From Eledone cirrhosa (lineage: Eukaryota): a stretch of 64,000 nt of DNA. Position numbers and translations under genes: made by a program. The stretch covers positions 29,140,001-29,204,000 of the forward strand of contig OZ024746.1 of the NCBI GenBank assembly GCA_964016885.1. The letters run 5' to 3'. This document shows positions 26,155 to 38,178 of this stretch, piece by piece. Within the stretch, counting starts at the first letter, position 1. The number at the start of each line of letters is the position of its first letter. The notes beneath the pieces are model-generated. The model made no database searches. It was not told the origin of the DNA and saw nothing but the letters and a program-made list of their open reading frames with translations.

Positions 26155-26191
26155 TTTTTGAAAAGCATTTAGAAATGCGCAACCGGTAAAA
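26155..26191 (+). ncRNA. Degenerate HHR fold with U3-A8 core (GAAA changed to GCAA)
   Basis: ttt-TTGAAAA-gcatt(taga)aatgc-GCAA-ccgg-TA-aaa. Confidence 0.5.
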
Positions 26192-27750
26192 ACTTAAAAA
26201 CTTAAAACCACAACTGAATACTAACCCATACAATCACTAATACTCTTTTATTCCTAATTAAACCATTTTTCAACTGTGAACAATTTGTCAGCATTTTCTA
26301 TTCCGTTTACCAATATATAATAACTTGTGTGTTACACCTCTATTCTTTTAACTATATATATATATATATATATATATTGTTATACTTTGGGAGGGTCATG
26401 TTTCCAATAAGAAACACACGCACCAGTTGCTTTCACTTCAATTTATTATATATTTATAAATTTATAAATTTACAAATTTATAAATTTCTGGTTGGTTGGT
26501 TGGTTCCACAACCAGATAGTTGTTTATATATAGTCATAGTTCTTTCGTCGCACACTCTGTGACCTCTTTTATAAATTTATAAATATATATATAATATATA
26601 TATATAATAAATTGAAGTGAAAGCAACTGGTGCGTGTGTTTCTTATTGGCAACATGACCCTCCCAAAGTATAACAATATCGGTTTCAACACACGATTTCA
26701 GATAAAGAATCTTGCTAAACAAATTCAGAAACAAAATATATATATATATATATATATGTATATATATATATATATGTGTGTGTGTGTGTGTGCATGTATA
26801 TATGTATGTATGTATGTACGTATGTATGTATGTGTATATGTCAGGTCGCTCTTCAGTGCTACTGGTAACATGTAACCCAGTACAATCTGTACATAGTGGG
26901 GTCGTCGGCGACTAAACCGGCAGCCCCACCAAGCTTACTTGGTGAGGAGGGTGATTTTGGACAGCCTGCAGGATGAAAAACAAGACCCGTGAAAGGGCGG
27001 GGGGAACTCAGCAGAGTCAACGACCATCCAATAAAGTATATATATATATATATATATATATATATATATATATATAAGATCAAAAGATGGTTAAATGAGT
27101 TCCATGTATTTTATTATGCGCATTTCAAAAACAAATATCATCATGCAATAACATTTGTGTTTTCATCAGATAAAATAGGAGGACATGATATGAAGGTTAA
27201 AAACACTTGTGGATAGTGCAGTTTTAAATCAACATATGAAAAGTAGTTTTAGATTGATGTGTGATATTGGGGAAAAAAATTTTTTTGAGGAGGGGGAGGT
27301 TGGAAAGGATGAAATGCGCATAATAAAATACATGGAACTCATTTAACCATCTTTTGATCTTATATATTATGTATACTCCAGTCCTACAAACTGTATAGTG
27401 CTTCTTATCCGATATCTGCATTGCTTTATTGTACTACAATAAAACTCACCTCCTACATTATATATAAATATATATATATAAATATATATATATATATATA
27501 TATTAGAAAGTGAGGGTTTTTTTACAAAATGAAAAATAACCGAGGTCTCCTACACGAGTGGAAGTATAAAGAAAAAGGGATGAAATCGAAAATGCAACTG
27601 AAGTCTTATTTTTTTAAAAAATATATATATATTTATTTGGTTCCTTTACCGGTTTCGCAGTTCTTCTGCTTTTCAAAAGGTGAGTTGAGATGGAGGGTCT
27701 GTGGTTTTTCTCACATGTGAGAAAAACCACAGACCCTCCATCTCAACTCA

Positions 27751-27788
27751 CCTTTTGAAAAGCAGAAGAACTGCGAAACCGGTAAAGG
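27751..27788 (+). ncRNA. Minimal HHR fold with U3-A8 core variant (mirrored on the minus strand)
   Basis: cctt-TTGAAAA-gcag(aagaa)ctgc-GAAA-ccgg-TA-aagg. Confidence 0.65.
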
Positions 27789-35856: not shown

Positions 35857-36440
35857 ATAGCTGAGCAGTGAAAACACATCTCTGAACCTCAGCAGTTTGT
35901 TAGTCAGTGTCACATTAGCTAAGCAGCGAAATCACATCTCTGAACCTCAGCAGTCTGTTAGCCAATGTCACCTTAGCTGAGCAGTGAAAACACATCTCTG
36001 AACCTCAGTAGTTTGTTAGTCAGTGTCACCTTAGCTGAGCAGTGAAAACACATCTCTAAACCTCAGCAGTCAGTTAGTCAGTGTCACCTTAGCTGAACAG
36101 TGAAAACACATCTCTGAACCTCAGCAGTCTGTTAGTCAGTGTCACATTAGCTGAGCAGTGAAAACACATCTCTGAACCTCAGCAGTCTGTTAGTCAGTGT
36201 CACATTAGCTGAGCAGTGAAAACACATCTCTGAACCTCAGCAGTCTGTTAGTCAGTGTCACCTTAGCTGAGCAGTGAAAACACATCTCTGAACCTCAGCA
36301 GTCTGTTAGTCAGTGTCACATTAGCTGAGCAGTGAAAACACATCTCTGAACCTCAGCAGTCTGTTAGCCAATATCACCTTAACAGAGCAGTGGAAACACA
36401 CCACTTGCCATCAATAGTCAGCAGTCTGTTAGTCAGTGTC
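35857..36440. repeat. 58-bp minisatellite, ~10 copies
   Basis: ttagctgagcagtgaaaacacatctctgaacctcagcagtctgttagtcagtgtcac(a/c) units. Confidence 0.9.
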
Positions 36441-38087
36441 TGCCAGATGCTCTGGCCAGTTTTATGACTAGGTCAGCTTCTGGATGTACTCCAGATACTC
36501 ACACAGTCAATGCCTCGTTGATAATTCTGACCTTATTCCAAAATTCATCTCATATGTTACTGGTGTCTTAACAGTGTTATGTTTCAATGTTATACTGTAT
36601 TACAGAATATATCTATAAATCTTAGTCATCATTGTGTATATGTATGTATGGTCCAGTAACTCTTGAGGGAGTCATGAGGGCACCGTATACAACGTTTCTT
36701 GGGCATTTTAAGCCTGGTGGAGCCCATCTCTCTCCATGAATGAATACAGCAGATTTCTTCCAGAGAAAGATAGAAAGTGAGAGAGAGAAAATGAGAAAGA
36801 GATATAGAGGAAGAACCAACCACTAGACTGAAAGGCAAAATTGACCTCGGCGGGATTTGAACTCTGAGCACAAAGATATTGTACATACAATTTTTTATAT
36901 TTGTTTATATATACATTGTTGGCTGAAAATCTGTTGATATATTTGTTTCTACATTAGGCACAAGGCCAGCAAATACCCAGTTCATTACTGGTACTTTATT
37001 TTATCGACCCCGTAAGGATGAAAGGCAAAATCAACCTCGGCGGGATTTGAACTCAGATCGTAAAGGGACGTAACTATGCTGGAAAGCATGGCGTCCGACC
37101 CTCTACAGATACTGCCAATCCACCGCCGTTGATATATTGTGTAGTAAAGTGTGTATTTTAAATATAACACACACACATACAGAAAGACAAGGTGTATACA
37201 TCTATCTATACATAGTACAGCACTGGCTAATATGTATAGATATACGTTATACTACAGTATAGCATTGATATATAATGCGGTTAAGATATCGATAATATAT
37301 ATATATATATATATATATATATATAACGGAAGAAATGTGGTAAGGAACCAGGTGGACCATAACGCACCAAAGTACTCAATACTTAGGGTAGTAGAGTGGG
37401 TAATAGGAACGAGTTGGACCCCGACGGCTGAGCTCAAGCCGTTTCGACGGCTAATTCCGTCGAAACGGCTTGAGCTCAGCCGTCGGGGTCCAACTCGTTC
37501 CTATATATATATATATATATATATATATATATATATATATATATATATATATATATATATATATATATATACGTGTTTTGCAACGGGTCACTTTGTGGCT
37601 CAATGAAAAGTTAATAAATTAAATAATCAGAGCTATATATCATAAAACATGTCTATAGAATCACCAGATAAAATATATACCATATACTAATTGGAAGAGG
37701 AAATGATATATATTTTATCTGGTGATTCTATAGATATGTTTTATGATATATATATATATATATATAAAATATTATAAAAAGGAATAATAGATACAATATA
37801 CCTATTTTTTCCATTATTGTCTCTAACTCCCTCACGGTAGAGTAACCACGGAAGTATAGTGACTGCTTTCAAGCAAACACTATATACACTTCTAGTCAAC
37901 CTTACCACCCCTCTGTAGCCTATGTATCATATCAATATCTCCCTCCGCCTTCTGAGATATTTTCACTGCTACAAGGGATTAATCCCCTTTCTTGACCGGT
38001 GTATCACGTGATAGAGTCTCCCTCCGCCTTTCTGAGATTTTCTCGCATGCTACGGACGTATGTAGTTAGGGCTCTTCCCTGAGGTGC

Positions 38088-38178
38088 TCTCTTGATAAGC
38101 TGGCTTACCTCACAACAATGTTATATATCTATGATATAACATTCTTGCATAGTGACCAGCGAAACTGTACAGTCGGGA
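38088..38178 (+). ncRNA. HHR fold with U3-A8 core variant
   Basis: tctc-TTGATAA-gctgg...ccagc-GAAA-ctgtacag-TC-ggga; palindromic stem III, GUC site. Confidence 0.65.

What the first reader, a model, noticed from the sequence alone, without database searches (positions are those of the whole stretch)
26155..38178. Three hammerheads share a compensatory U3-A8 core (TTGANAA) instead of C3-G8
Seen: 27755 TTGAAAA, 26158 TTGAAAA and 38092 TTGATAA each sit exactly where CTGANGA belongs, between a pairable stem I and stem II. The stems differ between copies (cctt/aagg, ttt/aaa, tctc/ggga; gcag/ctgc, gcatt/aatgc, gctgg/ccagc). Established: C3 and G8 form a Watson-Crick pair in the active HHR, and compensatory swaps can rescue activity. 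Inference: the same double change in at least two families is selection rather than decay, and standard CUGANGA searches would miss these elements.
Basis: partly seen in the sequence, partly recalled or inferred. Interest (0 to 1): 0.75.

Follow-up and report, generated by a model that had tools for sequence, protein, structure and literature searches.

The report
Penelope hammerheads with altered catalytic cores
These are hammerhead-ribozyme motifs at the ends of very abundant Penelope-type jumping genes; their U-A core swap is already in print, but one family of over 11,000 copies also carries a change at a normally invariant core base that likely weakens self-cutting, which suggests these elements may spread without it.

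Summary
Observation confirmed, novelty mostly not. All three TTGANAA cores sit in type I hammerhead folds, and a fourth lies on the minus strand at 27676. U3-A8 is the family consensus, not decay: 6,009 exact copies of motif A, and 12 of 28 hits in 1 Mb of evenly spaced genome samples. A (27755) and B (26158) are end-repeat hammerheads of two related Penelope-like elements with RT and GIY-YIG, so they count as one inherited change. C (38092) is a ~590-nt non-coding, tandem-capable unit. U3-A8 is published (Perreault 2011; Cervera 2014, ~1,300 Schistosoma hits), and this scan noted it before on other DNA. Across 15 motif types the pair is always matched (11 C-G, 4 U-A). A genomic test for cutting was inconclusive.

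The parts
27751..27788 (+). Family A minimal type I hammerhead: U3-A8 core 27755-27761, stem II 27762-27774, GAAA 27775-27778, palindromic linker, predicted cut after 27784
   Evidence: 6,009 exact genome matches
27643..27680 (-). Mirror copy of the family A hammerhead (U3 at 27676)
27497..27866 (.). Head-to-head insertion of two 5'-truncated family A pLTR pieces in (TA)n; fold-back centre 27715/27716 about 40 nt upstream of U3, the commonest 5' end of the family
   Evidence: full element with a hammerhead in both pLTRs in L012
26155..26191 (+). Family B hammerhead-like motif: U3-A8 core 26158-26164, stem II 26165-26178, GCAA 26179-26182 (C13 at 26180), palindromic linker, 3-bp A-U stem I, predicted cut after 26188
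   Evidence: 98 of the first 100 listed family matches read GCAA; 11,751 GCAA matches
26047..26359 (.). Family B insertion in (TA)n: plus arm 26151-26359 (3' part of the pLTR plus tail), inverted arm 26047-26153
   Evidence: full element with the motif in both pLTRs in L057
38088..38178 (+). Family C type I hammerhead: U3-A8 core 38092-38098, long branched stem II 38099-38160, GAAA 38161-38164, 8-nt palindromic linker, predicted cut after 38174
   Evidence: 122 matches to a 30-nt pattern, 99 of the first 100 with U3 and all 100 with A8
37761..38407 (.). Family C element: ~590-nt non-coding unit 37812-38407 plus a short inverted arm 37761-37811, flanked by (TA)n
   Evidence: permuted tandem junction in L337; longest Met-started frame 29 aa

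Best explanation
The three motifs are type I hammerhead folds with a family-wide U3-A8 core pair; A and B lie in the end repeats of two related Penelope-like retrotransposons and C in a non-coding ~590-nt repeat likely moved by Penelope enzymes, A and C are predicted to cut their RNA only as dimers, and B, which has also fixed A13C, is likely a weak or dead ribozyme whose element kept spreading by copying uncut RNA. Shown: folds, copy numbers, linkage of A and B to RT plus GIY-YIG, matched 3-8 pairs across motif types, C13 in two B subfamilies, and 5' ends piling up about 40 nt upstream of the core. Inferred: U3-A8 arose once in the ancestor of A, B and probably F and was kept by selection on the 3-8 pair in master copies; two motifs pair through the palindromic stem III (the two pLTRs of one transcript, or two RNAs), possibly helped by the element's protein; the 5' pile-up marks the transcription start, so most insertions were copied through an uncut hammerhead; cutting is therefore an accessory step, which would let A13C and a weak stem I persist in B.
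For: Full elements with the motif in both pLTRs around RT (PF00078) and GIY-YIG (PF01541): L012 for A, L057 for B; Pfam run on L016 and L063. Blind descriptor over all loci then held plus the window: 11 C3-G8 and 4 U3-A8 motif types, no mismatched type, Fisher p=7e-4 if types were independent. The abundant C3-G8 family E splits at the free position 7 (66 G, 33 T, 1 A of 100 listed) but keeps C3-G8 in 97 of 100. Stem II pair 4 is G-C in A and U-A in B. With short flanks the cofold minimum is the double hammerhead for A and C (swapped stem I P=0.82 and 0.62, intermolecular stem III P>=0.95), while B forms no stem I (P<=0.01) and buries the core in a competing hairpin. C13 is shared by B1 (98% alike within) and B2 (93% within, 90% to B1). 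5' ends fall 64-76 nt upstream of the predicted cut in 14 of 41 A and 7 of 24 B copies. Literature: dimer model and low activity of minimal Penelope hammerheads; a Penelope hammerhead that needs protein and is dispensable for insertion in vitro; Naiads thrive without canonical hammerheads; gaaa to gCaa listed as an engineered mutant beside G5A mutants, outcome not stated in the table.
Against: No cleavage data exist for any of the three. With 40-nt flanks the swapped stem I is lost in all three dimers (P=0.0). In one deep mutational scan only the G3-C8 swap rescued activity, not U3-A8. Motif types are related, and two checked types are single sequences genome-wide, so the Fisher value overstates independence. 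B keeps the other core bases unchanged in both subfamilies, and its 5' breakpoints near the predicted cut peak at +1 (21 of 58), which would fit activity, although a sequence-matched A-run 8 nt downstream attracts more junctions. No parent ORF was found for C, and no RT tree was built.
Confidence: 0.72

Rival explanations
1. B is an active ribozyme: C13 is tolerated, perhaps because U3-A8, dimer context or the element's protein relaxes the need for A13, so U3-A8-C13 is a working natural core.
For: C13 persisted through two amplification waves with the rest of the core and the palindrome intact. Breakpoints within -2..+4 peak at the predicted cut in B (2, 2, 8, 21, 11, 14; p about 2e-4 against a uniform model). 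Other core variants assumed harmful do cleave in nature.
Against: The matched control A-run has about 17 of 35 (TA)n-joined junctions against 1 at the cut window (hand tally). A has 12 of 38 at the same sequence context (p=0.0015). Cut-window to upstream ratio is 2.5 per base in A and 1.5 in B (p=0.04). Stem I is 3 A-U pairs and is not formed in folding. About ten unchanged bases over 10% divergence is not surprising by chance.
Confidence: 0.3
2. None of the U3-A8 motifs cuts; the fold is kept as a protein-binding, dimerising or promoter-proximal element and catalysis was already relaxed in the A/B/F ancestor.
For: Stem I erodes in the lineage: 4 bp in A, 3 in B, about 2 in F. Most copies run through the motif to an upstream start. 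U3-A8 was not rescued in one scan. Hammerhead mutants do not impair insertion in vitro.
Against: The 3-8 pair is a catalytic-core contact and stays matched in all 15 motif types. Perreault cites earlier in vitro activity of swapped pairs. A shows a mild junction excess at the cut (24 of 100 at +1, p about 0.02).
Confidence: 0.2
3. U3-A8 is decay or chance: copies of a C3-G8 ancestor picked up two transitions after insertion.
For: Both changes are transitions, and single mutants of each kind exist (33 C3-A8, 16 U3-G8 in family A).
Against: U3-A8 is the state of 6,009 exact A copies with no C3-G8 copy among 59 position-3 variants, of both pLTRs of full elements, and of 99 of 100 listed C copies.
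Confidence: 0.02

Closest known systems
Minimal type I hammerheads of metazoan Penelope-like elements, U3-A8 families Sm3/Sm4 of Schistosoma mansoni Cercyon (Cervera and de la Pena 2014, PMC4209133; main text parts 1-2 of 4 and supplement parts 1-2 of 3 read)
   Same: Type I topology in both pLTRs, U3-A8 core, G10.1-C11.1, palindromic helix III, thousands of truncated and opposite-strand copies, predicted dimer action.
   Different: No extra base between 9 and 10.1; 4-nt (A, B) or 8-nt (C) palindromic linker; U3-A8 makes up about four in ten motifs in this genome's sample; family B has GCAA, whereas the representatives in Fig. S3 show GAAA (one AGAAA).
Natural C3U/G8A core variants (Perreault et al. 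2011, PMC3088659; sections 8, 9, 17, passages and Table S1 part 1 of 2 read)
   Same: The same covariation, described there as first seen in nature and earlier shown active in vitro.
   Different: The core variants named in the text are U3-A8, A6C, A6a, U13a insertion, U15.1-A16.1 and a U10.1-U11.1 mismatch; no A13 substitution is named, hits changed at A13 were rejected, and gCaa appears only as an engineered mutant. Figures 5, S6 and S7 could not be seen as images.
C-terminal-endonuclease Penelope-like elements of Neptune/Nematis type (Craig et al. 2021, PMC8557442; passages read)
   Same: pLTRs, inverted 5'-truncated copy, tail extension, CX4CxxC linker before GIY-YIG, (TA)n targets, ORF1 separated by a frameshift.
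   Different: Clade not fixed by a tree here; hammerhead cores are U3-A8 and U3-A8-C13 and would escape the cuganga/gaaa descriptors used there.
Metazoan non-LTR retrozymes (Cervera and de la Pena 2020, PMC7229834, passages; Li et al. 2026, 10.64898/2026.07.22.740005, part 1 of 5)
   Same: Family C is non-coding, low in GC, carries a type I hammerhead and occurs as permuted or tandem units.
   Different: Unit ~590 nt against the usual 150-450, mostly near-monomeric two-armed insertions, 62-nt stem II, U3-A8 core; circular RNA not tested.

Membership tests
Minimal type I hammerhead of Penelope-like elements | Type I order: stem I, core, stem II, second core strand, stem III, UH, stem I | tested here: met
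   for A, B and C
Minimal type I hammerhead of Penelope-like elements | Watson-Crick pair at positions 3-8 (C-G, or the published U-A) | tested here: met
   U3-A8 is consensus in A, B, C
Minimal type I hammerhead of Penelope-like elements | G12-A13-A14-A15.1 strand (families A and C) | tested here: met
Minimal type I hammerhead of Penelope-like elements | G12-A13-A14-A15.1 strand (family B) | tested here: not met
   GCAA in 98 of 100 listed matches and 11,751 matches genome-wide; B is hammerhead-derived but not filed as a canonical member
Minimal type I hammerhead of Penelope-like elements | Short palindromic helix III allowing a dimer | tested here: met
   intermolecular stem III P 0.95-0.97 with short flanks
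Minimal type I hammerhead of Penelope-like elements | Unpaired base between A9 and G10.1 (common, not universal) | tested here: not met
   absent in A, B and C
Minimal type I hammerhead of Penelope-like elements | Located in both pLTRs of an RT-EN element | tested here: met
   A in L012, B in L057; not shown for C
Minimal type I hammerhead of Penelope-like elements | Self-cleavage 3' of H17 | not testable with these tools
   no RNA holder listed; genomic breakpoint proxy inconclusive
Neptune/Nematis-type Penelope-like element (A, B) | RT followed by C-terminal GIY-YIG endonuclease | tested here: met
   PF00078 and PF01541 above cut-off in L016 and L063
Neptune/Nematis-type Penelope-like element (A, B) | CX2-5CxxC linker before the endonuclease | tested here: met
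   CX4CxxC read in both translations; motif definition
Neptune/Nematis-type Penelope-like element (A, B) | Direct pLTRs, inverted truncated copies, (TA)n targets | tested here: met
   484-nt and 574-nt direct repeats at 98% identity
Neptune/Nematis-type Penelope-like element (A, B) | RT groups with reference Neptune or Nematis sequences | not tested
   no reference set fetched, no tree built
Metazoan non-LTR retrozyme (C) | Non-coding unit with a type I hammerhead | tested here: met
   longest stop-free frame 88 aa, longest Met-started 29 aa
Metazoan non-LTR retrozyme (C) | Tandem repeats of 150-450 bp | tested here: inconclusive
   one clean 585-nt tandem junction (L337); three other same-strand pairs are interrupted; no long array seen; unit larger than usual
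Metazoan non-LTR retrozyme (C) | Expressed as circular RNA | not testable with these tools
   no RNA holder listed (searched with family B DNA)

The most novel reading that the evidence does not exclude
Family B is either the first natural hammerhead family working with a U3-A8-C13 core, or a Penelope lineage that amplified to over 11,000 copies in two waves after its ribozyme was knocked out. Beside sister family A with an intact GAAA, it is a natural paired test of whether Penelope elements need hammerhead cleavage.
Probability: 0.5. Interest if true: 0.55.

Novelty: new variant of a known kind. Interest (0 to 1): 0.35.

Why it matters
The U3-A8 swap adds little by itself, beyond showing that CUGANGA descriptors would miss about four in ten hammerhead motifs in this genome's sample (12 of 27 credible hits). 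The role of hammerheads in Penelope elements is an open question. Sister families A (GAAA) and B (GCAA) share the same core pair, palindrome and cut triplet, and both spread widely, so one cleavage assay on the pair would show either that a base held to be essential can vary in nature or that these elements spread without cutting.

Tried and rejected
Rfam scan: only microsatellite and hairpin miRNA-type matches below gathering score, no hammerhead. Single-versus-double count within families: rejected as a test of selection, since position 7 varies as much (A; F: 10 variants at 8, 5 at 7 of 100; the five G8 copies of F checked are U3-G8 single mutants). A generic C3-G8 pattern was mistyped with an extra base and gave 4 matches against 149 in its control, so it was not used. 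Cut-site breakpoint test, a lead from earlier notes: A 272 and B 106 matches in the -2..+4 window; hand tallies of the first 100 of each; for B, 38 triple-repeat and 4 indel variants were dropped, leaving 58; for the upstream baselines about half of A (of 100 listed, 232 in all) and 22 of 68 B rows were dropped as indel variants. The B peak did not survive the matched downstream control, whose filter also differed; A has no downstream control; TA microhomology biases all windows. Verdict: inconclusive. Apparent 5'-end peaks at -214 (A) and -235 (B) are probably indels against my reference and were not used. RNA runs: no RNA holder listed. Contigs of runs X5 and X6, labelled as other organisms, keep U3, A8 and C13 at 97-99% identity but at low depth and may be the same species' DNA, so they are not counted. 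The designed-structure energies for C used a wrong stem length and were replaced. No PLE protein similarity was found in the C loci with A and B ORF2 as queries. Two motif types thought to be families proved single sequences. Not held and not seen: Lünse 2017, Nelson and Uhlenbeck 2008, Scott 2013, Przybilski and Hammann 2007. Searches for a natural A13C or GCAA core found no such report.
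Full report
Observation. A descriptor requiring GAAA found 27755, 38092 and a fourth motif at 27676 on the minus strand, the mirror of 27755 in a perfect palindrome. It missed 26158, because that motif reads GCAA at positions 12-15; freeing position 13 recovers it. Rfam gave no hammerhead among 144 matches at E<=1. I call the motifs A (27755), B (26158) and C (38092).

Copy numbers. The window lies in a 3.0-Gb genome. The exact 38-mer of A has 6,009 matches, control 0. 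A looser U3-A8 pattern with the CCGG linker and any base but C at 13 has 15,529 matches and shows a further family F. The B pattern has 6,081 matches, and 98 of the first 100 read GCAA. A looser GCAA pattern has 11,751 matches; this pattern does not fix positions 3 and 8, but 99 of the 100 listed have A8 and 48 of 50 fetched B copies are U3-A8-C13, the other two being both ends of one C3-A8 locus. C has 122 matches to a 30-nt pattern and 607 first-look candidates, of which 40 were scored.

What carries them. L012 holds a full A element and L057 a full B element, each with the motif in both direct repeats (484 and 574 nt, 98% alike) around two overlapping frames. [quoted passage not shown] Both have the CX4CxxC linker that Craig et al. 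give for Neptune and Nematis, and both have the same T-run heptamer where the frames overlap, fitting the frameshift drawn in their Fig. 1 legend (that the heptamer is a -1 slippery site is recalled, not tested). The window copies are short head-to-head end pieces in (TA)n. C is a ~590-nt unit with no long frame, found in permuted and tandem form; no parent protein was found.

Selection or decay. Not decay: U3-A8 is the master state. In A, with the rest of a 35-mer exact, position 3 varies in 59 copies (33 C, 14 G, 12 A; none with G8), position 8 in 38 (16 G, 13 C, 9 T) and the free position 7 in 43; the rates do not differ (p=0.14 and 0.66). The better test is across motif types. A descriptor blind to 3, 7, 8 and 13 gave, in 100 evenly spaced 10-kb stretches, 15 C3-G8 hits (5 from one tandem array), 12 U3-A8 hits and one A3-U8 hit at noise level (1.85 expected). 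Over all 1.37 Mb then held it gave 11 C3-G8 and 4 U3-A8 types and no mismatched type (p=7e-4 if independent). They are not fully independent: A and B align around the motif and share 56% of ORF2, F has the same layout, and two types are single sequences. Family E, a more distant Penelope-type family with 3,544 matches, splits at position 7 but keeps C3-G8 in 97 of 100. So the pair is constrained in master copies, with one sure origin of U3-A8 in the A/B/F lineage and perhaps a second in C.

Known already. Cervera and de la Pena report U3-A8 in Schistosoma Penelope repeats, about 1,300 hits, with the dimer model and low in vitro activity. Perreault et al. report natural U3-A8 and cite earlier in vitro activity. 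Against activity, a pairwise scan of one type III hammerhead found only the G3-C8 swap rescued. Eight earlier notes of this scan describe U3-A8 hammerheads in Penelope-type or retrozyme-like repeats on other DNA; they are leads, not support.

The part not found in print. B has C at 13 in both subfamilies, B1 (34 copies, 98% alike) and B2 (14 copies, 93% alike, 90% to B1), so it lasted through two waves of spread. A13 is listed among the conserved core bases, and gaaa to gCaa appears as an engineered mutant in Perreault's primer table, without a stated result. The representatives in Cervera's Fig. S3 show GAAA, one AGAAA. Term searches found no natural A13C, but Lünse 2017, the largest survey of these variants, was not held, and figure images could not be seen. 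B also has a 3-bp A-U stem I. With short flanks A and C cofold into the double hammerhead and B does not; with 40-nt flanks none does.

Does anything cut? No RNA run was listed. As a proxy I looked at 5' ends of copies. The commonest short end lies 64-76 nt upstream of the predicted cut, about 40 nt before U3, in 14 of 41 A and 7 of 24 B copies (these loci were mostly picked for an intact motif). This likely marks the transcription start and means most copies were made from uncut RNA, as Frangione et al. found in vitro for a protein-assisted Penelope hammerhead. Junctions within -2..+4 of the cut are rare: 272 matches for A, 106 for B. Both show a peak at +1 by hand tally (A 24 of 100, p about 0.02; B 21 of 58 after dropping 42 repeat and indel variants, p about 2e-4). 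In B an identical A-run 8 nt downstream draws more junctions, so its peak is not specific. Among distinct (TA)n-joined loci, 12 of 38 in A but 1 of 35 in B lie at -2..+1, and the ratio to an upstream baseline is 2.5 in A and 1.5 in B. This hints at more cutting in A than in B but is not decisive.

Mechanism. Most likely the pLTR promoter starts RNA about 40 nt upstream of the motif; two motifs pair through the palindrome, perhaps with the element's protein, and A or C RNA is sometimes cut after GUA or GUC; the RT-endonuclease nicks (TA)n and mostly copies uncut RNA. Cutting being optional would explain how B spread with C13 and a weak stem I. I put 0.72 on this overall picture, 0.3 on B being active and 0.2 on none cutting; these overlap in part.

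Verdict. The finding as posed is real and already known. The fixed A13C in a very successful sister family is a new variant as far as I could check, and makes the role of Penelope hammerheads testable with one paired assay. Interest 0.35.

Noticed in passing
L012 and L057, ORF1/ORF2 overlap: Both elements have a ~330-455 aa ORF1 without Pfam match overlapping ORF2 at the same T-run heptamer, a likely -1 frameshift site.
   Followed up: partly
L012 and L057, pLTR upstream of the hammerhead: Three short blocks are shared by A and B upstream of the likely start site, including a CCAAT box; probable promoter elements, repeated twice in B.
   Followed up: no
L320-L331 (family F): Older U3-A8 family, 262 matches, same linker as A and B but with only about 2 bp of stem I; parent element not sought.
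   Followed up: partly
L332-L336 (family E): C3-G8 hammerhead with 7-bp stem I and long stem II linked to a more distant Penelope-type RT-endonuclease; 3,544 matches.
   Followed up: partly
L119:8630-9700: 311-bp tandem array with a C3-G8 hammerhead in each unit and an inverted copy at its start, retrozyme-like.
   Followed up: no
window 21311-24987, minus strand: Broken non-LTR retrotransposon with RT (PF00078) and a C-terminal part that resembles a restriction-like endonuclease (resemblance recalled, not tested).
   Followed up: no
window 39246-39672, 32771-32872, 37404-37570: Further perfect or near-perfect fold-back palindromes in (TA)n from other repeat families, with no hit to my hammerhead descriptors.
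   Followed up: no
window 9270-9460, 17321-17525, 18293-18497, 31874-32074, 36937-37137, 42763-42945, 50746-50926, 51613-51811: A ~190-bp dispersed repeat with many copies at about 90-96% identity, SINE-like.
   Followed up: no
window 39781-40353, minus strand: Fragment that resembles a Tc1/mariner transposase (resemblance recalled).
   Followed up: no
window 52068-52541 and 55224-55847, minus strand: Gln/Pro-rich frames that look like exons of a host gene; 6.0-9.3 kb is a long trinucleotide-type repeat.
   Followed up: no
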